From NCBI GenBank assembly GCA_918797485.1, contig CAKKNE010000001.1, positions 2,108,001-2,172,000 of the forward strand: 64,000 nucleotides of DNA. Direction: 5' to 3'. The stretch comes from Pelagomonas calceolata (lineage: Eukaryota). The first letter of the stretch is position 1, and each line of letters starts with the position of its first letter. Made by a program: the position numbers and the translations under genes. The notes beneath the pieces were generated by a model. The model searched no databases. It saw only the letters and a list, made by a program, of their open reading frames with translations, and was not told the DNA's origin. This document shows, one piece after another, positions 4,234 through 60,874 of this stretch.

Positions 4234-7051
4234 ATGGCCGGCCAACCGGCCATGCGAGCGCCGCGGCGCCGCGCCGCATCGACGGCGCGGCTCGGCGCGC
4301 TGCTGGCCGCGCTGCCGGCGGCCGCCGCGCGGCCCTACCTCGGCGCGTGGGTGCGCAACGACTCGCTGGCGCCGACCTTCGACCGGCGGCTCCTGAGCTA
4401 CGCGCCCCACTTCCACGAGGCCCAGATGGGCCGCAACCGCAAGTGCGACACCGGCCACGACGTGTCCTGGCGCTGGGCTTGGTTTGCTTGCCGCGTCCCC
4501 TTTCCCGTCTTCATGATCTCTGATGGCTGAGCCCGCTTCGGGTCCCCGACGAGAGATATACCCCCCAGACGCCATCGACGCGCCGCTACGCCATCGACGC
4601 GATCCACGCGCACGCAGGAAACCCGTCGGCAAGAAAAGGCCGATGAAGCTGAAGTCGGGCGACGGGCTGTGCGACGCGCTGCGCGGCGTGCGCGTCATCA
4701 ACATCGGCGACTCGCTGACGCACCAGCTCGTCGAGACTTGGTGCGTATGCCGCGTCCCTTTTTTCCCCCGTCTTCTTGATCTGAGGCGTCCCGCGGCCTG
4801 ACGGTAGAGTTATCTTGGAGCCGACCACGACGCCATCGACGCGCATTTACGCCATCGACGCGACCCGCTACGAAACGCAGGCGAGCGCGGCGCATCGCGT
4901 CGTCGTGGCCGGTCCCCGACGGCTACGCCTACAAAAAGAGCGAGGAGGGCCACCTGTCCAAAGAGATCGACCTGGCGAACGAGTTCGCGCGCCAGACGCG
5001 CGGCGGCCGGCGGCGGCGGCGCCTCGGCCCGCACAAGGAGGCGCGCGAAGCTGCCGAGCGCGAGGCGCGGCAGCGTTCCGACGCCGACGAGCAATGCGCG
5101 AACGGGGCCACGTTCCAGTTCATCGAGCCGCAGCGGCCTTGGAGCCTCGTCCCCTGGGCCTTCCAGGAGCACGACCCGAGCGTGGCCAAGTGCGGCGTGG
5201 CCTTCCGGAACCAGACGCGCGACTTCGCGACGCACTTTTGCCGCGTCCAGCCTTTCCCTTCTGTCGCGGTGGCCGGGCCCGCGGAGCCGACGGTCGAGCT
5301 CACTCCACGCCGTCGCCGCGACGCTCGAACTTTTCGATCTGTGCTCTGTCGCGGTGGCCGAGCCGCGGAGACGACGGTCGAGCCCACGAGAGAGCCCACG
5401 GCTGAGCCTCGGACCCCCTCCACGCCATCGCCGCGACGCTCAAACAACCGCAGGCACAAGGCGAGCGAGTTGTCGGTCTGGCGGGCGGTCTTCGGCAAGG
5501 GCGCGATCGAGAAGGACAAGAAGAAGCGCGAGAAGCGGAAGCAGCGGCACAAGGCCGAGCGCACGCGCATGGCCGTGGTCTACAACTGCTTCGCGCACCT
5601 CGAGAGCATCGCGCGTTTCCCGCGTCCTGTTGGTTCTTGTGTCTTCGTCCTTCTGGCGCGGTGCCGAGCCCGCCTGGCGTGGACCTATCCACATGACTTT
5701 GCAATCACGAGAGACATTCTACCGCCCAACACGCCATCGACGCAGGCGCTCGAGGTCATGAACTGCTACGCCGAGGAGGCGCCCGACCGCTTCCCGACGT
5801 CCGCTTGCCGGCGTGGTGTTGTTTCTCGTGGCCTTTCGACGCGTTGATTTCCACACAGGCGCGCGGCGGCGCACAAGCTCGCGCTCGCCGACGTCGTCGC
5901 GTGGTGGCGCTTCGAGCTCGCCGCCATGGCCCGCGCGCTGCGCACGTCGGCGGACCGGGCGCGTTTCCCGCGTCCTTTTTTTGTGTCTTCGTCCTTGTGG
6001 CGTCGCGCTCGCAACGAGGACTTGGGGCGGTTACGGGGCAGTCGTCGAGGCCGCAGTACGACGCTATATCCAGATGAAATGTTTGGCACTCCTGGATGGG
6101 CCCTTCGTCGTCGGAACCAAAGGCCGGGTTGGGCGCGGGAAGAACGCCGGCCACCACGAGCGACGACCGAGCCCTGACCCGTCGCGGTGGCCGAGCACAA
6201 CACGCCGTCGACGCAGGCGCGGGACGAGCTCGGCATCGAGCTCCGGTCGTTCTACCGCACGTCGCCGCCGGCCGCGGACCGCTGGGTGCACCGCGCGCGC
6301 TACGAGGTACGTTTTTTCGGCGTCCTTTGCTGTGGCCCGGGCGGCCGTCCTTCGCCGAGCTTCGACCCGTCGGCCGGACCCCGCCGCGCGGTGGCCTGCG
6401 CCGGAGCTCACGGCTGAGCCGACTTCGGGTCCCCGACGAGAGAAAGACCCCCCCCAGACGCCATCGACGCGACCCGCTACAAAAAACGCAGGTGAAACGC
6501 GGCGACAAGGCGAAGCAGGCCCTCGCGCCCGCGCTGAAGTTCAAGGCGGTCGACGAGAAGGCGTTCGACAAGCTCGCGCGGAACGTCGAGCGGCTCGCGG
6601 CCGGGTCGGTGGCCACGACGGAGTTCGTGGCCCGTGTCCTTTTCTTGGTCACTTCGGGTCCACAACGAGAGATATACCCCAAGACGCCATCGCCGCGACG
6701 CGCCACCGACGCAGGTGGGCCCGGGCCGAGGGCGGCGGCGCCGCGGCGCCCCTCGCGGTGGTCGCGGAGCTGGCCTCGCCGCCGGCCGGCGAGGACGAGT
6801 ACGGCCACGAGGTCGTCGACGTGGCCAACGGCGCCGCGGCCGCGGCCTTCCTCGCCGCGGGCCACGGGGTCATCGACGTCGCGGCCATGCTCGGCCTGCG
6901 CGTCGACGCGCACCCCGGGTCGACCGCGGGCGGCACGGACGGCCTCCACTTCTGCATGCCGGGGCCGCTGGACTACGCGCTGGATCTCGTGTTGGCTCGC
7001 GTTGGCTCGGCGTTTGATTCCGTCGTTCCTGAGATTGATGCGCCCCATTAA
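4234..7051 (+). CDS. TBL/PC-esterase (SGNH-like) O-acyltransferase/esterase-like secreted protein, about 9 introns
   Basis: Hydrophobic N-terminus; IGDSLTHQ motif near 4700; DGLHFCMPGPLD (DxxHxCxPG) motif near 6940; exons separated by ...CGCAG/...CACAG-ending introns. Confidence 0.65.
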
Positions 7052-8464: not shown

Positions 8465-8500
8465 TAGAGGGTCAAATCGAGAATCACGGGTTTTTTCTAT
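8465..8500 (+). promoter_or_regulatory. Candidate upstream Pol III element for tRNA-Pro(CGG)
   Basis: AGGGTCAAATCGAGAATCACGGGTTTTTTCTAT, closely similar to the element upstream of the permuted tRNA (11044-11080, -). Confidence 0.5.
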
Positions 8501-8565
8501 TGGGTATTCAGATGACACTGATTTTTTCGAATCATCTCTCCCAGCGCTCGTCGTCGCGAGCGCTG

Positions 8566-8661
8566 GGGAGCATGGTCTAGTGGCATGATTCATCCTTGGT
8601 AACAATGGAATCACTGCGCTTCGGGTGCGCGAGGTCGTGGGTTCGATTCCCGCTGTTCCCC
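8566..8661 (+). tRNA. tRNA-Pro(CGG) with 24-nt non-canonical intron at 27/28 (8592-8615), copy 1
   Basis: Acceptor GGGAGCA/TGTTCCC+C73; D arm GTCTAGTGGCATGAT; anticodon arm CGCGC-TTCGGGT-GCGCG after splicing; T arm GTGGG-TTCGATT-CCCGC; oligo-T downstream. Confidence 0.9.
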
Positions 8662-9002
8662 TTTGTTTTTTTTGCTTTTTTTGGCCTCTCCGCGCTCTAT
8701 CCTACGGGTTCCGACCGGAATCCGGCTCAACGGGCACAACGGGCGTCCGGCGTACACACGACGCGTAACGGGCGTGGTCGTGGTGGGCGTGGAAGCGGGG
8801 CTAGCTAGAACTCAGCGCTCGGGCGACGCTCGGCCGACTTCGGACGGCGGGCTAGCTAGTCCTCAGCCCTCTCGCAACCGACACATGCTTCGTGACGATG
8901 GAGCGTCCGGCCGGCGTCGGGCGCGACTGTTTTCTATTGGGTATTCAGATGACACTGATTTTTTCGAATCATCTCTCCCAGCGCTCGTCGTCGCGAGCGC
9001 TG

Positions 9003-9098
9003 GGGAGCATGGTCTAGTGGCATGATTCATCCTTGGTAACAATGGAATCACTGCGCTTCGGGTGCGCGAGGTCGTGGGTTCGATTCCCGCTGTTCCCC
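9003..9098 (+). tRNA. tRNA-Pro(CGG) with 27/28 intron, copy 2
   Basis: Identical to copy 1. Confidence 0.88.
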
Positions 9099-9363
9099 TT
9101 TGTTTTTTTGGCTTTTTTTGGCCTCTCCGCGCTCTATCCTACGGGTTCCGACCGGAATCCGGCTCAACGGGCACAACGGGCGTCCGGCGTACACACGACG
9201 CGTAACGGGCGTGGTCGTAGTCCTCAGCCCTCTCGCAACCGACACATGCTTCGTGACGATGGAGCGTCCGGCCGGCGTCGGGCGCGACTGTTTTCTATTG
9301 GGTATTCAGATGACACTGATTTTTTCGAATCATCTCTCCCAGCGCTCGTCGTCGCGAGCGCTG

Positions 9364-9459
9364 GGGAGCATGGTCTAGTGGCATGATTCATCCTTGGTAA
9401 CAATGGAATCACTGCGCTTCGGGTGCGCGAGGTCGTGGGTTCGATTCCCGCTGTTCCCC
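9364..9459 (+). tRNA. tRNA-Pro(CGG) with 27/28 intron, copy 3
   Basis: Identical to copy 1. Confidence 0.88.
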
Positions 9460-9794
9460 TTTGTTTTTTTTGCTTTTTTTGGCCTCTCCGCGCTCTATCC
9501 TACGGGTTCCGACCGGAATCCGGCTCAACGGGCACAACGGGCGTCCGGCGTACACACGACGCGTAACGGGCGTGGTCGTGGTGGGCGTGGAAGCGGGGCT
9601 AGCTAGAACTCAGCGCTCGGGCGACGCTCGGCCGACTTCGGACGGCGGGCTAGCTAGTCCTCAGCCCTCTCGCAACCGACACATGCTTCGTGACGATGGA
9701 GCGTCCGGCCGGCGTCGGGCGCGCCGGCTGCCAGCGTGGAACGCCAAATGATCGTCGAGCGGGGCGTGTTCAGAAAAGAAATACAACAGCGAAA

Positions 9795-10712
9795 TTAACG
9801 CACCCCATTCTCACGCCGTCCAGCAGCCACAAAAAGCGCCACCGCAAACGTCCCCAGCGCTGCGACTGACGCGACGGGCCGCGAGAACGCCGCGGGGTAG
9901 AACTCGCGGAGGCAATTGCGCTCCACGACGACCTTCGCGCCGACGGCGACCCAGTGCGCCGCGGCCGCGCGCGCGACACCGCGGCGGAGCACTTTTTGAT
10001 CAGCTGTCGCGAGCGAGAGCGCCGCCGCCGCGTATAGCACTGAAAAAGCGCCAAAGGCCCGCGAGAGACGCCGGCCCAGCATCGTCGGCAGCGTCGCGAG
10101 CGGGAACGGCGCCACCGCCGCGACGAGCGCCCAGCCCGCGAAGGCGAGCGCGACGGCCCGCCAGACCGTCGACTGCGAACTCCGCTTCGTGTTCGGCGAC
10201 GACACGTAGGCCGCGCCGCAGAGCAGTGCCGCGCTGCCGTGGACAGCGGCAGCAACTGCCCGCAGCGGCGCGGGGTAGGTGATGGCCGCGGAGTGCGCCA
10301 TGTGCGCGAGGCCGGGCGCGCGCGCCGCCGCCGTGGCCGTGAAACGCGGCGCGAAGACGACGGCAGCACAGAGCCAGGCCGACGCCGCGGCGAGGCCGAG
10401 CTGCACCGTGCGGTCTTCGGGAGCGGCCTCGAACGACGCGGTCAGCAGCGGTAGCGGCGTCAACGCTTGCAGGATGGACAGGCGCGCGTGCGCCGCAGGC
10501 AGCGCGAGCGTCGGATGCCGCGACAGCGCCGTGACGGCGCAGGCGGACCAGGCCGCGACGGAGGCCGCCGAGGCGAGGCGGTAGGCATTGCTCTGAGTGG
10601 GTGCAGCGGTGCTTGCGGCGCTCCGGCGGGTCGATCGCTGGCGTAGGCGCGTCGGCGGCGTCGAGAGGGCTTGTGCGTGCCCGGATAGGAGCAATACGAT
10701 TGCGCGTCGCAT
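9795..10712 (-). CDS. Probable plastid-targeted multi-pass membrane protein
   Basis: MRRAIVLLLSGHAQA-L + Ser/Arg-rich transit-like stretch; several hydrophobic helices. Confidence 0.6.
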   Translation of the reverse strand: MRRAIVLLLSGHAQALSTPPTRLRQRSTRRSAASTAAPTQSNAYRLASAASVAAWSACAVTALSRHPTLALPAAHARLSILQALTPLPLLTASFEAAPEDRTVQLGLAAASAWLCAAVVFAPRFTATAAARAPGLAHMAHSAAITYPAPLRAVAAAVHGSAALLCGAAYVSSPNTKRSSQSTVWRAVALAFAGWALVAAVAPFPLATLPTMLGRRLSRAFGAFSVLYAAAALSLATADQKVLRRGVARAAAAHWVAVGAKVVVERNCLREFYPAAFSRPVASVAALGTFAVALFVAAGRRENGVR

Positions 10713-10800
10713 GGCTGTGCGGTGTTCGAGGCGGACGGGAGGTTTGGGCGGCTCGGACCCCCCAAAATGCCAAAGGGGGGGGTCAAAGGACCAAAAAAAC

Positions 10801-10808
10801 AAAAAAAA
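10801..10808 (-). terminator. Pol III oligo-T terminator of the permuted tRNA
   Basis: T8 run on the minus strand about 11 nt after the 5'-half exon. Confidence 0.7.
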
Positions 10809-10819
10809 GAAGCACACAA

Positions 10820-10984
10820 TACCACTAGACCACTGAGCCGGAAACCGGGCTGACCACTGAGTCTTTAGAACTCATCAGCGGGGAATTGAACCCCGGACCT
10901 CATGCGTATACACATAGAGTATAGCTCGCAATTTAGTGAAAAACTCCCTAAGATTCCTCCCGGTTTTACACGGGTCGAGAATCA
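10820..10984 (-). tRNA. Circularly permuted tRNA-Pro(AGG) with four introns
   Basis: Exons in transcript order 10984-10976, 10952-10946, 10930-10925, 10900-10876, 10851-10847, 7-nt linker, then 5' part 10839-10820; rejoined = 72-nt GGCTCAGTGGTCTAGTGGTATGATTCTCGCTTAGGGTGCGAGAGGTCCGGGGTTCAATTCCCCGCTGAGCCC; BHB-like motif at every junction. Confidence 0.88.
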
Positions 10985-11043
10985 AGGAGGTGTGCGCCTG
11001 CTTCGAAAGCTACTTTCCGCGAAACCGCGGTATGTGGATCGGC

Positions 11044-11080
11044 ATAGAAGAAAACCCGTGATTCGAGAATTGACCCTTTA
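11044..11080 (-). promoter_or_regulatory. Candidate upstream Pol III element for the permuted tRNA
   Basis: TAAAGGGTCAATTCTCGAATCACGGGTTTTCTTCTAT, ending 60 nt before the first exon; matches 8465-8500. Confidence 0.5.
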
Positions 11081-11152
11081 TGCCACTCAGGGTAAGTGGA
11101 GCTATCTCCATCAACTAATGCCCGCAAACCGCCGCCGGCAACGCCAAAAACC

Positions 11153-11869
11153 ATGAGCGCTGCGAATTCACAGCCACGGCCATCGATGCGGACCGTAGTC
11201 CAAGGCATCATCGACAGCCAGCAAAGCCGGGCGCTTGTCCAGCCGGCGGCGGGGCGCGCGCCACTGCTCCTACGCGTCAAAGGTACGCTGATGTGCGAGG
11301 AATACGACGAGCGACACGAGCTGCGCGTCATGAACTGCGCCGGCGGGATGCAAGCGGCGGAGTCCTTCGACGAGTACATGCAGGTGGTCGTGGGCGAGAT
11401 AGTCGCGCTACGGGATGCGGTACTCATGTTCTTCCCGCCCGACCCAGCGGAGAGTGAAGGTAATAACGATCATGTCCTCCTGAGCTTGTGGCACGAAGGC
11501 CTCCGGTCTGTACTCGCGCACCTGGGCGTCCCGTGGCCGCTGGGAGAGGCACTGGAGTGCGTCGACATCCGGGACTTCGACGGGCTCGACGACGATCGCG
11601 ACGCCGTGGCGGACATCGACACTTGGCAAATCCTGCATGACGCGATGGACCGGCTCACGGAGCGGTGCATGGGCAACACGATCGACACCTACAAGCTACT
11701 GGGCGCGCCGCACGAGGCCGACGGGACTGTGGAGACGCATCAAGACGGCCTGTGCTGGGCCGTGGCGGTTGAGGGCAAATTTGAACAGGACTTTGGCAAG
11801 GAATGCGACCCGGAGTACGAACCCCCTCTGCCGGTCTGGGGCCGGGGCTCCCTAGGTCAAAACTACTGA
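11153..11869 (+). CDS. Hypothetical acidic protein
   Basis: Intronless ORF with GC3-biased codons. Confidence 0.6.
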   Translation: MSAANSQPRPSMRTVVQGIIDSQQSRALVQPAAGRAPLLLRVKGTLMCEEYDERHELRVMNCAGGMQAAESFDEYMQVVVGEIVALRDAVLMFFPPDPAESEGNNDHVLLSLWHEGLRSVLAHLGVPWPLGEALECVDIRDFDGLDDDRDAVADIDTWQILHDAMDRLTERCMGNTIDTYKLLGAPHEADGTVETHQDGLCWAVAVEGKFEQDFGKECDPEYEPPLPVWGRGSLGQNY

Positions 11870-27699: not shown

Positions 27700-29009
27700 T
27701 TACTCGTCACCCAACAACAGCGGCCCCAGCCGCGCCGCGTCGCCGCACCTCCTTAACCCCCAGAGCTCGAGGAGGTGCGCGAGGACGACGTCCGCGACGC
27801 CCGCGGCGCGCAGCTTATCCAGCGCGCGCGCGGCCTGGTTCCGGTAGAAGTCCTTCTGCGGCGCCGCGCGCGGCCGCTGCGTTTCAGGCGGCGGTGCCGC
27901 GTCGTCCCGGAGCGCCGCGTACCATTCCTCGAGGGGCGCGTAGCGCGTCGCGTGCACTTTCCGAGCGAAGGCCGGCGCGTCGTCCACGAACTCCGCGAGC
28001 GCCTCGACGAGGGGCCCGCCCGGGTCCGGCGTCTGGAAGACGACGGCGGCCCGCTTGGCCTGGGCCTGTGTGGAATTCAAATTTCGGCCGTCCCACGCGT
28101 TCGGCGCGACGTGCTCCCGTAGCTGCGTCTGCGCGATGGCGTGGTGTTTCCAGGCCATCGACGCGACGTCGTTGAAACCTAACTCACTGGTTGATTTCCA
28201 CACAGGCGTGCGCGGCCGGGAAGAAGGTGTTGATGGACGCGGAGAGGTCGCGGGCCTGCGTCGCGTGTTTTGTGATCTTTCGCACTGCCGCGGCTCTCTC
28301 GCGAGACCCGTAGACTCTCTGACGGCCACGTCGACGACGTGTCGCGGCGACGAGCAGCCGTCTCGGGACGCCATCGACGCGGACGACGCGCCTCGCAGTG
28401 GTGGAACCAGAAGGCCGGGATCGCCAGCGCGTCGCCGGGTTCGAGGACGACGTCGAGGTCCGGGTCCGGCATCTCCTCAACGTCGATCTGCGCTTTCCGG
28501 GCGAGCGGGTGCGCGTCGGGGAAGGGCCTCATGGTCCAGTGAGATGATGGCGCCCAGCACCTGATTCGCTTCGTGCCCACGCATTGGCCCAGAATATTGT
28601 CGGCGACGTCGTAGTGTGCCTGGGTCGTCGAGCCGTTCCCGCCGACCCAGAGTGAGGTCTTGCGCGGCAGCGCATCCACGACGTCGTCTCCCACAGCTCC
28701 GCGCCACCAGTCCGCGCCATCATTCTTGAAGGTTGTAGTGTAGTAGTAGTAGTCGCTGCTCTGGGATGCGCATTTGTCGAGGAGCTCGCCGCCCGTCAAC
28801 GTCTCCCACTCAACTCTAAAGCGGTCCGCGCCGACGGTCCGCTTCTTCGTATTCGAATCGTCCTCGCTGTAGCAGAACAGGCCTGTAACCGAGCGCTTCG
28901 CGACGAGTTGTGCCGGGAGCGCGTCCGCGAGGCTGACGTTTCGCAATTTTTGTCGTAGGGTCTGGCAGGCGACGAGGGCGGGCTTTTTTAGTGAGGATGA
29001 TGCTGCCAT
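27700..29009 (-). CDS. JmjC/cupin-8 hydroxylase; introns ~28258-28392 and 28066-28213
   Basis: LWVGG...TQAHYD...GTKRIR...LEPGDALAIPAFWFHH. Confidence 0.85.
28066..28205. mobile_element. Introner element (TIR CTGTGTGGAA..TTTCCACACAG), GC donor taken from TSD
   Basis: TSD GCCTGGGC (28058-28065) vs GCGTGCGC (28206-28213). Confidence 0.8.
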
Positions 29010-29364
29010 TTTCTATCGCTGCGCTTCGACGGCTGTGGTTGGCTCTGCAGCCTGTGGCAGCACTTTGGTGCTGCGATTCAGGGGCGTCACGGGTGCTCAA
29101 GACGTTGTGCACTGCTAACGCCGGTCACGCACGGATGCCAGACGAGCGCTTTGGGTCGGTGGTGCTTGCGAGGGCGGGCTTTTTTAGTGAGGATGATGCT
29201 GCCATTTTCTATCGCTGCGCTTCGACGGCTGTGGTTGGCTCTGCAGCCTGTGGCAGCACTTTGGTGCTGCGATTCAGGGGCGTCACGGGTGCTCAAGACG
29301 TTGTGCACTGCTAACGCCGGTCACGCACGGATGCCAGACGAGCGCTTTGGGTCGGTGGTGCTTG
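28973..29364. repeat. Exact 196-bp tandem duplication covering the JmjC start and upstream region
   Basis: 28973-29168 repeated at 29169-29364. Confidence 0.95.
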
Positions 29365-58984: not shown

Positions 58985-60874
58985 CTAGTGCATGTGCGCC
59001 GCGCCGCCGTGCGCGTGGAAAAGGTGCTCGCCGTGGCCGTGGCCGTGCTCGTGGTGGTGGTCCGTCGCCACGGGCGGCAGCTCGTGGGGCGTCTCGTACT
59101 GCGAGGCCGCGGCGGCGGCGTCCTCGGCGACCATGAGGGGCACGGCGTAGCCCTCGTATCGGCGCGCGCCGTCCGGCTTCGACGCGTCCTGTGGCGCGTC
59201 CTTCGTCAGGACGGGCATGTAGGCCCACCGGCCTTCGACGCGCACGCGCGCGGTCGCGTCGGCCTGCCCGAGCAGTTTCCTAGAAGCGTCGGCGGCGAAG
59301 GCCTCGGTCCACGTCTTCGTGGGCACGCCCTCCGTCGCCTGTTCCGCGGCCCAGAAGGGCACCGCCACGGACGGGTCGACGCTCTGCACGGCGGCCTCCA
59401 ACAAAGCGCCAAAGGCCGCGAAGTTGGAATCTAACGTAGAATGCGTCCGCGAGAGGCCCGTCGCCTGGAGCGCCGCGGCCGGCTTCTTGACCTCGCCGTC
59501 GAAGCCGAGCGCCGCGCGCCGCTCCAAACCAAGAGCCTGGCCGACGAAGCGCTGGCCGAAGGTCTCCCAATCCGTTTGATCGCCCTTGACCTCCAGCCGG
59601 TGGCCGCCGACGTCTCGCACCTCGCTTGGTACCCTTAGAGGTTTAGACTTCTCGACGAGGTCCGCGGCCGCGTCCGCGCCGACCTTCCCCGCGAGGAGGT
59701 CGTGGTCCTCGCCGTCGGCGCCGAGGAGCGCGTGCGCGGCCCAGAGCTCGTCCATGCTCCGGAAGGCGGGACCGTACTTTTGGCGCCCCCGCGCCGCCGG
59801 CGTCTCGTACAACTTCACAATGGCTTGGAGGAACCGCGACCGGTCGGCGGGCGTGAGCGCCGTCGCCGCGCGCCGCGCGTGCCGCACGTCGACCTGAAAT
59901 ATGGCCTTGCCTCCCTTGGTTTCGACGGCGAGCGTGTAGGCGCCGGGCTCCGTTAACGTGGCGTTGCCCACGACGACGCGGCGGCCGGCGCCGAGCTCGA
60001 TCGGTTGCTCGCATTGCTCCTCGTGCCCGTGGTCGTGTCCGTGGGCTTCGGGCGCGCCGTGGTCGTGCTCATGACTCTCGGGCGCGCCGTGGTCGTGTGC
60101 ATGAGCCTCGGGCGCGCCGTGGTCGTGCCCGTGGGCCTCACTCGCGCCATGGTCGTGCTCGTGACTCTCGGGTGCGCTGTGGTCGTGCCCGTGACTCTCG
60201 GGCGCGCCGTGGTCGTGCTCGTGACTGTCGGGCGCGCCGTGGTCGTGCTCGTGACTCTCGGGCGCGCCGTGGTCGTGAGCGTGGGCCTCGCCGTGGGCGT
60301 GGTGCGCGTGTCCGGCGTCGCCGTGGGCGTGGTCCGCGGCGCCACCGTGGTCGTGCGCATCAGACTCGCCGTGCGCGTGGTGCGCGTGGCAGTCGCCGCC
60401 GTGGCAGTGGTGCGAGTGCCCGTCGCCCCCGTCGTGCGCGTGCCCCTGGTCCGCGTCCGGCGCCCGCTGGAGTTTGAGGGAGTAAGTATCGTGGTCGTGG
60501 CCGCGCTCCGCCGCCTCGGCTTCTGCGAGCGTCGCTTCGAGCCGGGCGCGCTCTTCCTTTAACCACGCCGCGCGGTCGGCCGGCGGCGCCTGGCCCAGCG
60601 AGTGCGCGATGGCCGCGAGCTCAGACGCGATTTGTAAGGTGTTCGCCGCGGCGTCGAGCTGCGCCTCATGATCCGCGTCGGAGCGTGTCACGACGAGTAC
60701 CGTCTCGCGGTACGGCTCGACGACGCAGCCGGCGACGCAGTCTTCCACGCCGTACGCGTTCTTCGCGACGAGGCTTAGCTGGAAAGGTCCGTCGTCGTCG
60801 GCGTGGTGGTGGCCCTTGTGCGCGTGGACTGCGCCCGCGGCGAGCACCAGCCAAGCGTAGGCTGTGCGGCGCAT
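58985..60874 (-). CDS. Secreted His-rich protein with degenerate tyrosinase-like domain
   Basis: Signal peptide; HxHDHGAPES repeats; RRAATALTPADRSRFLQA...KYGPAF and EAAVQSVDPSVAVPFW. Confidence 0.75.
   Translation of the reverse strand: MRRTAYAWLVLAAGAVHAHKGHHHADDDGPFQLSLVAKNAYGVEDCVAGCVVEPYRETVLVVTRSDADHEAQLDAAANTLQIASELAAIAHSLGQAPPADRAAWLKEERARLEATLAEAEAAERGHDHDTYSLKLQRAPDADQGHAHDGGDGHSHHCHGGDCHAHHAHGESDAHDHGGAADHAHGDAGHAHHAHGEAHAHDHGAPESHEHDHGAPDSHEHDHGAPESHGHDHSAPESHEHDHGASEAHGHDHGAPEAHAHDHGAPESHEHDHGAPEAHGHDHGHEEQCEQPIELGAGRRVVVGNATLTEPGAYTLAVETKGGKAIFQVDVRHARRAATALTPADRSRFLQAIVKLYETPAARGRQKYGPAFRSMDELWAAHALLGADGEDHDLLAGKVGADAAADLVEKSKPLRVPSEVRDVGGHRLEVKGDQTDWETFGQRFVGQALGLERRAALGFDGEVKKPAAALQATGLSRTHSTLDSNFAAFGALLEAAVQSVDPSVAVPFWAAEQATEGVPTKTWTEAFAADASRKLLGQADATARVRVEGRWAYMPVLTKDAPQDASKPDGARRYEGYAVPLMVAEDAAAAASQYETPHELPPVATDHHHEHGHGHGEHLFHAHGGAAHMH
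60025..60280 (-). repeat. Coding 30-bp tandem repeat (about 8 x HxHDHGAPE[S/A])
   Basis: GGTCGTGCTCGTGACTCTCGGGCGCGCCGT-like units. Confidence 0.9.

What the first reader, a model, noticed from the sequence alone, without database searches (positions are those of the whole stretch)
8566..9459. tRNA-Pro(CGG) with a non-canonical intron at position 27/28
A 24-nt insertion ATCCTTGGTAACAATGGAATCACT sits at the top of the anticodon stem rather than at 37/38. It folds as TGAT-[TCA]-TCC-TTG-GTAA-CAA-T-GGA-ATCA-[CTG]. BHB-rule cuts (TC^A, CT^G) restore the C27-G43 pair. Eukaryotic tRNA introns are normally confined to 37/38, so this independently supports the BHB-type splicing system suggested by the neighbouring permuted gene.
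Basis: partly seen in the sequence, partly recalled or inferred. Interest (0 to 1): 0.72.

Follow-up and report, generated by a model that had tools for sequence, protein, structure and literature searches.

The report
Oddly placed intron in algal tRNA
The marine alga Pelagomonas calceolata carries three tandem copies of its proline (CGG) tRNA gene with a 24-base insert in the anticodon stem, shaped like an archaeal cut site and likely removed by a shape-reading tRNA-splicing enzyme; this kind of intron is known from red and green algae, but I found no report of it in this algal group.

Summary
Confirmed. Three identical tandem copies of tRNA-Pro(CGG) (8566-8661, 9003-9098, 9364-9459) each hold a 24-nt insert at 27/28. 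The host is Pelagomonas calceolata (neighbouring gene 100% identical). Of the cuts tested, only this one gives both the best cloverleaf and a perfect 4-bp central helix. The motif is relaxed (HBh', no outer exon helix) and not the lowest-energy fold. The tandem array is seen in public DNA runs. Two syntenic metagenome orthologues keep the insert and have unchanged exons. A more distant, probably pelagophyte, orthologue lacks it, so it is likely a recent gain. Against necessity: the genome also holds a conserved intronless tRNA-Pro(CGG) paralogue, without a terminator, in front of an MJ1316-domain gene. All 11 RNA reads over the tRNA came from that paralogue, so splicing is not shown. The neighbouring permuted four-intron tRNA-Pro(AGG) follows the same geometry and shares an upstream element. 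Position 27/28 is already known in Ostreococcus; the stramenopile host is what is new. This scan has already noted the neighbour, and tRNA-Gln and U6 cases on other DNA of this genome. Verdict: likely a real BHB-type intron (0.8), new member of a known kind.

The parts
8469..8494 (+). Upstream element (GGGTCAA, 5-nt spacer, then a core ATCACGGGTTTT), likely an external RNA polymerase III promoter; only copy 1 has it whole
   Evidence: The 26-nt pattern and the 12-nt core (allowing mismatches) each occur exactly twice in 64 kb, here and before the tRNA-Pro(AGG) gene. The core is unchanged in L014 and L028, while the spacer varies. Promoter function is inferred.
8490..9724 (+). Tandem triplication: units 8490-8926 (437 nt), 8927-9287 (361 nt, 76-nt deletion) and 9288-9724 (437 nt)
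   Evidence: Units differ by 2-3 mismatches. The unit-end to unit-start joint is in contigs of X2, X3 and X5, with a matching loose end in X1; the 76-nt deletion is in X1, X2 and X3.
8542..8565 (+). 9-bp leader hairpin directly before G1; a longer leader could pair with the 5' acceptor strand
   Evidence: Sequence; folding depends on where transcription starts; only loop changes in L028, one stem change in L014.
8566..8591 (+). tRNA-Pro(CGG) copy 1, exon 1 (nt 1-27, with intact A box)
8592..8615 (+). 24-nt intron at 27/28. Central helix 8586-8589 with 8610-8613; bulge 8590-8592; intron stem 8593-8595 with 8607-8609; 3' site 8614-8616
8616..8661 (+). tRNA-Pro(CGG) copy 1, exon 2 (nt 28-73, anticodon CGG, B box, discriminator C73)
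8666..8682 (+). T8 and T7 runs, polymerase III terminator-like
   Evidence: Sequence; unchanged in L014 and L028
9003..9098 (+). tRNA-Pro(CGG) copy 2, intron 9029-9052
   Evidence: identical to copy 1
9364..9459 (+). tRNA-Pro(CGG) copy 3, intron 9390-9413
   Evidence: identical to copy 1; covered without differences by contigs of X1, X2, X3 and X5
10820..10984 (-). Neighbour: circularly permuted tRNA-Pro(AGG), junction 21/22, introns at 30/31 (10975-10953), 37/38 (10945-10931), 43/44 (10924-10901) and 68/69 (10875-10852), 7-nt spacer 10846-10840
   Evidence: Joined exons give a 72-nt cloverleaf, ARAGORN 123.6; each intron has a 4/4 central helix; the junction has a 3/4 helix and a 9-bp leader-trailer stem.
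11051..11076 (-). Second copy of the upstream element, before the tRNA-Pro(AGG) gene

Best explanation
This is a tRNA-Pro(CGG) gene in three tandem copies whose 24-nt insert at 27/28 is likely an intron cut out by a tRNA-splicing endonuclease that reads a relaxed bulge-helix-bulge shape instead of measuring to position 37/38. Shown: gene, insert, cut register, 4-bp central helix, retention in two close orthologues, absence in a distant orthologue. Inferred: polymerase III transcribes it (intact A and B boxes, T runs, shared upstream element). The D-stem 3' strand pairs with the intron's 3' end. The enzyme cuts after the second base of the TCA bulge and of the CTG segment, a ligase joins C27 to G28, and the D and anticodon stems re-form. 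The intron is likely a gain on the Pelagomonas line. The triplication likely raises the dose of the tRNA for the commonest proline codon.
For: Single register with top cloverleaf and 4/4 helix; shuffle nulls 0.8% and 0.045%. The spliced junction matches the intronless gene at the syntenic locus of a distant, probably pelagophyte, contig (L034: same acceptor stem, T run). The 4 exon differences from L034 are one D-loop base, a double compensatory change at 49-65 and a C-G to U-G change. Of 60 metagenome loci, 2 carry the insert; both are syntenic and have exons identical to the window's (L014 99%, L028 about 90%). The two intron changes in L028 lie outside the helix and stem. All 5 differences from the intronless paralogue fall on the paralogue's branch and none on this gene's, although paralogue loci have diverged to about 78-93% in their aligned segments. 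Same geometry at 4 of 4 introns of the neighbouring AGG gene. CCG is 145 of 261 proline codons in 14 hand-picked window ORFs. Precedent for spliced ectopic nuclear introns in C. merolae and Chondrus.
Against: No spliced or unspliced RNA from this gene: 11 of 11 reads covering position 9424 in four polyA runs carried the paralogue's base; polyA libraries are a poor test. An intronless, strongly conserved paralogue exists in the same genome (DNA runs X1, X3; 8 metagenome loci, 1 of 72 columns variable against 48 of 161 upstream), so this gene is not provably essential. The cut-ready fold is a minority conformer (intron stem about 0.3 here, about 0.14 in L028), and the outer helix is absent. Exon conservation in L028 is biased because my pattern fixed 38 of 72 bases: for the 34 free bases P is 0.07, not the 0.004 of the naive test. 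The intron diverged at about the flank rate (2 of 24 against 7.4%), and both changes falling in free positions is not significant. Copies 2 and 3 lack most of the upstream element.
Confidence: 0.8

Rival explanations
1. The insert killed the gene. It is a small inverted duplication that made a pseudogene, since triplicated by chance, and the intronless paralogue supplies tRNA-Pro(CGG).
For: A conserved intronless paralogue exists and is the only copy seen in RNA. The insert's 3' end is the reverse complement of nt 22-27, as a template switch would leave, and the bulge-free helix is the lowest-energy fold. Yoshihisa 2014 notes that odd insertions in one of several synonymous eukaryotic tRNA genes are usually taken as pseudogenes (PMC4090602).
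Against: No exon change on this gene's branch since the split from the paralogue. Terminator, synteny and upstream element belong to this gene, while the paralogue has no T4 run within 250 nt in the 6 loci with enough downstream DNA. The same geometry at four more introns 1.4 kb away is unlikely by chance.
Confidence: 0.12
2. The insert is removed, but not by the standard endonuclease at the BHB register: either a different nuclease and ligase act, or the cut is shifted and gives a slightly altered tRNA.
For: The cut-ready fold is a minority conformer. Neighbouring excisions still score as tRNA-Pro (121.3, 118.6). Very short nucleomorph introns are spliced by an unknown route. I could not look at the alga's endonuclease genes (no genome).
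Against: Only the 27/28 cut reproduces the junction found in the intronless orthologue L034. Five introns and one permutation junction obey the same 4-bp and 2+1 spacing.
Confidence: 0.06
3. Assembly artefact: the insert or the triplication is an error.
For: The three copies are identical, and one of the DNA runs may be the source of the window.
Against: The insert-bearing gene lies in contigs of four DNA runs from three studies; the repeat joints are in them too. It is also in two metagenome contigs.
Confidence: 0.02

Closest known systems
27/28 intron of the permuted nuclear tRNA-Ser(TGA) of Ostreococcus lucimarinus (Maruyama et al. 2010, seen only as Table 1 of Soma 2014, PMC3978253)
   Same: Same insertion site, in a nuclear tRNA gene of a marine picoalga that also has permuted tRNAs.
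   Different: There the intron is 56 nt, classed 'no H', in a permuted Ser gene of a green alga. Here it is 24 nt with a perfect central helix, in an unpermuted Pro gene of a stramenopile.
Ectopic BHB introns of Cyanidioschyzon merolae nuclear tRNAs (Soma et al. 2013, PMC3728597; parts 1-2 of 6 read)
   Same: Short (11-69 nt) introns away from 37/38 with strict or relaxed motifs including HBh', beside permuted genes; an upstream promoter is proposed.
   Different: Reported sites are the D-stem, D-loop, variable arm, T-stem and T-loop, with none listed in the anticodon stem and at most three introns per gene. Splicing was shown by RT-PCR there but not here. The upstream motif there is TATA-like; here it is a different element.
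Chondrus crispus D-loop (20/21) and T-loop (58/59) introns (PlantRNA 2.0, 10.1101/2021.12.21.473619; whole main text read)
   Same: Nuclear tRNA genes missed or called pseudogenes by standard scanners because of ectopic introns.
   Different: Two fixed sites, red alga, experimentally validated.
Non-canonical BHB introns of Crenarchaeota (Yoshihisa 2014, PMC4090602; passages)
   Same: Same cut-site geometry, including HBh' forms and anticodon-arm sites such as 25/26, 29/30 and 30/31.
   Different: Different domain of life. 27/28 is not among the archaeal sites named in the passages I saw (the list ends in 'etc.'; figures not seen). No sequence link was tested.

Membership tests
Non-canonical BHB-type tRNA intron (archaeal / C. 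merolae type) | Removal restores a normal cloverleaf with conserved tRNA bases | tested here: met
   72-nt tRNA-Pro(CGG), ARAGORN 123.3, best of 30 excisions; junction equals that of the intronless orthologue L034
Non-canonical BHB-type tRNA intron (archaeal / C. merolae type) | 4-bp central helix with cuts after the second base of two 3-nt segments | tested here: met
   TGAT/ATCA 4/4, segments TCA and CTG; the only such register of 14; pair probabilities 0.86-0.97
Non-canonical BHB-type tRNA intron (archaeal / C. merolae type) | At least one flanking helix (relaxed hBH or HBh' form) | tested here: met
   Intron stem TCC/GGA, 3 bp, kept in L028, though formed in only about 30% of the ensemble
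Strict hBHBh' subtype | Both flanking helices present | tested here: not met
   Outer exon helix is 0 bp (A21 faces C29)
Non-canonical BHB-type tRNA intron (archaeal / C. merolae type) | Spliced product exists in the cell | tested here: inconclusive
   Four polyA runs, 6-12% of each read: no joint, and 11 of 11 reads at 9424 come from the paralogue
Non-canonical BHB-type tRNA intron (archaeal / C. merolae type) | Cut by the tRNA-splicing endonuclease (EndA / Sen2-Sen34) | not testable with these tools
   No genome held; needs biochemistry
Canonical eukaryotic tRNA intron | Position 37/38 | tested here: not met
   Excisions at 35-37 score 111.2 and give a Thr reading with a broken stem
Spliceosomal intron or introner element | GT/GC...AG ends; about 210 nt for this alga's introners | tested here: not met
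   Ends are AT...CT and the length is 24 nt; introner traits from passages of 10.1101/2021.10.25.465678
tRNA pseudogene with insertion | Decay of exons, boxes or terminator | tested here: not met
   No exon change private to this gene against L034 and the paralogue; terminator intact; statistical power is modest (P 0.07 on unbiased bases against L028)

The most novel reading that the evidence does not exclude
The Pelagomonas host nucleus has independently and recently evolved ruler-free, archaeal-style tRNA splicing and is being invaded by BHB introns. This intron was gained after the split from a pelagophyte that keeps the gene intact, and disrupted genes are driven from a shared upstream element. 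In the boldest reading, the intronless tRNA-Pro(CGG) copy parked without a terminator in the leader of an MJ1316 (RNA cyclic-end recognition) gene couples that RNA-repair-type gene to tRNA processing.
Probability: 0.3. Interest if true: 0.8.

Novelty: new member of a known kind. Interest (0 to 1): 0.52.

Why it matters
Ectopic tRNA introns in eukaryotic nuclei are described for red algae, prasinophytes and remnant nucleomorphs, and reviews leave open whether they are ancient or convergent (PMC13578239, passages). A case in a stramenopile host nucleus, with an intronless orthologue at the syntenic locus of a relative, points to recent gain and convergence. It also gives a culturable, abundant ocean alga in which to ask how the eukaryotic endonuclease loses its 37/38 ruler. 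This single-intron gene is the simplest substrate for that test, and the intronless paralogue is a built-in control that can be told apart by five bases. In practice, standard scanners miss or miscall these genes (none found; called Thr or Ile when introns are allowed).

Tried and rejected
Default ARAGORN found nothing; very relaxed ARAGORN gave 316 mostly spurious calls and read this gene as tRNA-Thr with a 20-nt canonical intron, rejected because the 27/28 cut scores higher. PolyA raw reads X21-X24 gave no joint. I first took their insert-free tRNA reads as possible spliced product and rejected that when the same insert-free sequence turned up in DNA contigs of X1 and X3. A few reads in 1 of 4 runs (X24, depth under 2) cover the AGG gene's upstream part on its sense strand; too few to use. 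Viral collection: 0 hits for the tRNA pattern and 1 hit for the upstream element, without a matching core or evident tRNA, taken as chance. The idea that the leader (8495-8565) hides a second, permuted tRNA or the tRNA-Asn that precedes the gene in L034 was rejected: no matching acceptor stem, no Rfam hit. The paralogue as a mobile element was rejected, since it is single-locus and syntenic in 8 contigs; as a retrocopy of mature tRNA it is unsupported, since no CCA follows. The naive exon-conservation test (P 0.004) was discounted for pattern bias. The bacterial promoter scan is not applicable. An Atlas search of one window protein gave no taxon. The organism with the T-loop inserts stays unidentified. 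Maruyama 2010 is not held, so its full list of intron sites, and the figures and supplements of the other papers, were not seen; they may hold more 27/28 cases. Literature searches listed no paper on disrupted nuclear tRNA genes in pelagophytes or other stramenopiles; most hits were seen as listings only, and subscription papers are not covered.

Full report
1. What is in the sequence. Positions 8566-9459 hold three identical 96-nt genes, one per unit of a tandem repeat of 437, 361 and 437 nt. Rfam calls each a tRNA with an unaligned anticodon arm. Removing 24 nt after nucleotide 26 (Sprinzl 27/28) gives a 72-nt tRNA-Pro(CGG) with the top ARAGORN score of 30 excisions tried (123.3). That register is the only one of 14 scored that has a 4/4 central helix (TGAT/ATCA), with TCA and CTG at the cut sites and a 3-bp intron stem. 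Shuffled inserts reach this in 0.8% (helix) and 0.045% (helix plus stem) of 100,000 trials. The outer exon helix is absent, so the motif is the relaxed HBh' form. Folding puts the central helix at 0.86-0.97 but the bulged, cut-ready register at only about 0.3, because a bulge-free 6-bp helix competes (-5.7 against -5.3 kcal/mol locally).

2. Organism. GC is about 64%. A UniRef protein named Pelagomonas calceolata is 100% identical to window ORFs over stretches of 118 and 111 residues. A window protein lies on a 6.28-Mb contig. The window is nuclear DNA of this pelagophyte stramenopile.

3. Is it real DNA? On 9290-11200, contigs from four DNA runs (three studies; one may be the window's source) cover the insert-bearing gene without differences. 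The unit-to-unit joint is in X2, X3 and X5, with a matching loose end in X1, and the 76-nt deletion is in X1, X2 and X3. Contig depth over the unit is 2.2-2.3 times that over the neighbouring gene in three runs; the tool warns that this is no copy number, so I take it only as consistent with several copies.

4. Relatives. One metagenome scan for the two exon halves with 0-30 free bases between them gave 60 loci. Two carry a 24-nt insert at 27/28, and both are syntenic with the window. L014 (99%) has the same intron. L028 (about 90%; 84 substitutions in 1135 flanking bases) has identical exons and two intron changes, both outside the helix and stem. Because my pattern fixed 38 exon bases, only 34 are a fair test (P 0.07). 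Fifty-eight loci have no insert there. L034 (GC 0.69) has the same acceptor stem, a T run, and the homologue of the window's gene at 4780-7050 within about 1 kb, although inverted and preceded by a tRNA-Asn. The named relatives of that protein are from P. calceolata and Aureococcus, so I read L034 as a more distant pelagophyte. Its tRNA differs from the spliced window tRNA at four bases, all compatible with the structure. The insert is therefore most simply a gain on the Pelagomonas line. Polarity rests on one close outgroup plus many distant intronless genes.

5. RNA, and a paralogue. In four polyA raw-read runs (one sample; 6-12% of each read) there was no joint. The 11 reads over position 9424 all carried other bases and had no insert. 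They are not spliced product: the same insert-free sequence stands in DNA contigs of X1 and X3 and in 8 metagenome loci at one other, syntenic site. This paralogue differs at five bases (a 7-66 pair swap, 22, 26, 38), all derived relative to L034 and the window gene. It is strongly conserved (1 of 72 columns variable against 48 of 161 upstream; part of the 72 was fixed by the pattern) and has no T4 run within 250 nt in the 6 loci with enough DNA. It lies about 60-100 nt before an ORF with an MJ1316 domain (E 3e-19). So splicing is untested, and the gene cannot be called indispensable. On the other hand, the intron-bearing gene is the one with the ancestral location, the terminator, the upstream element and no private exon change. 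CCG is 145 of 261 proline codons in 14 ORFs that I picked by hand, which fits amplification of a working gene.

6. Neighbour. On the minus strand at 10984-10820, six pieces join into a 72-nt tRNA-Pro(AGG) (score 123.6). It is permuted at 21/22, with introns at 30/31, 37/38, 43/44 and 68/69, each with a 4/4 central helix; the junction has a 3/4 helix and a 9-bp leader-trailer stem. The joint shuffle probability for five 4/4 helices is about 2e-8 (registers were chosen by the mature sequence, and for two introns the helix picked between equivalent shifts). Both genes, and nothing else in the window, are preceded by the same 26-nt element; copies 2 and 3 lack most of it. I parsed this gene before looking at earlier notes. 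The scan had already reported it, and also a three-intron tRNA-Gln and a U6 gene with similar inserts on other DNA of this genome (the last two not checked by me).

7. Mechanism. Inferred from established tRNA biology: polymerase III transcription, 5' and 3' trimming, pairing of nt 22-25 with the intron's 3' end, two cuts by a tRNA-splicing endonuclease that reads local shape, ligation, then refolding of the D and anticodon stems. The yeast-type ruler mechanism would not reach 27/28 (PMC3728597 and PMC3978253). Confidence 0.8; pseudogene 0.12; other enzyme or register 0.06; artefact 0.02.

8. What is known. Ectopic nuclear tRNA introns are validated in C. merolae (PMC3728597, parts 1-2 of 6 read) and Chondrus (PlantRNA 2.0 preprint, whole main text) and in nucleomorphs (PMC4090602, passages). 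A 56-nt 27/28 intron without central helix is tabulated for O. lucimarinus (PMC3978253, parts 1-2 of 11 and passages). A 2026 review names no stramenopile case in the passages found (PMC13578239). A P. calceolata genome preprint does not contain the word tRNA in its main text, and an Aureococcus announcement gives only a count of 123. PMC4033280, PMC3218864 and PMC8450103 were seen as passages. Six searches listed nothing on disrupted pelagophyte or stramenopile nuclear tRNAs. Maruyama 2010, figures and supplements were not seen.

9. Verdict. The intron type and even the site are known; the host lineage, the evidence for recent gain and the paired intronless copy are the new parts. New member of a known kind, interest 0.52.

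Noticed in passing
L010, L017, L019, L026, L041, L048, L054, L057 (in L054: tRNA at about 2049-2120 on the - strand, ORF 1554-1979 on the - strand); also in DNA runs X1, X3 and RNA runs X21-X24: Intronless tRNA-Pro(CGG) paralogue of Pelagomonas-like algae: nearly invariant, no polymerase III terminator, about 60-100 nt before an MJ1316-domain ORF, and read in polyA RNA together with its 3' flank. Possible tRNA-mRNA cotranscript tied to RNA repair.
   Followed up: partly
L003, L009, L031, L047, L056 (26 nt) and L024, L029, L049 (27 nt): tRNA-Pro(CGG) genes of two other unidentified eukaryotes (GC about 0.55) with unrelated inserts at 59/60 in the T-loop (central helix 3/4, 5-bp outer helix); L021 and L050 have identical exons without insert. 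More non-canonical introns outside this genus.
   Followed up: partly
window 8469-8494 (+) and 11076-11051 (-): Shared upstream element before both tRNA-Pro genes, found nowhere else in the window; a possible seed for finding other polymerase III genes of this alga.
   Followed up: partly
window 10984-10820 (-): Permuted tRNA-Pro(AGG) with four introns, including one at 68/69 in the acceptor stem; already reported by this scan.
   Followed up: yes
L034 2474-2633 (-): Intronless tRNA-Asn(GTT) 13 nt before the orthologous tRNA-Pro(CGG), a likely dicistronic pair that the window lacks.
   Followed up: no
window 8520-8570: The leader has a T6 run and a hairpin that can extend into the acceptor stem; predicted folding of the tRNA depends on starting at or after about 8540.
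   Followed up: partly
window 28973-29364: Exact two-copy tandem repeat of 196 nt.
   Followed up: no
window about 9830-10700 (-): A gene of no Pfam family between the two tRNA loci has a diverged second copy or allele (about 85-90% identical) in all four DNA runs.
   Followed up: no
window 60027-60432 (-): Histidine-rich 30-nt repeat (HEHDHGAPES-like units) inside a long ORF, possibly metal-binding.
   Followed up: no
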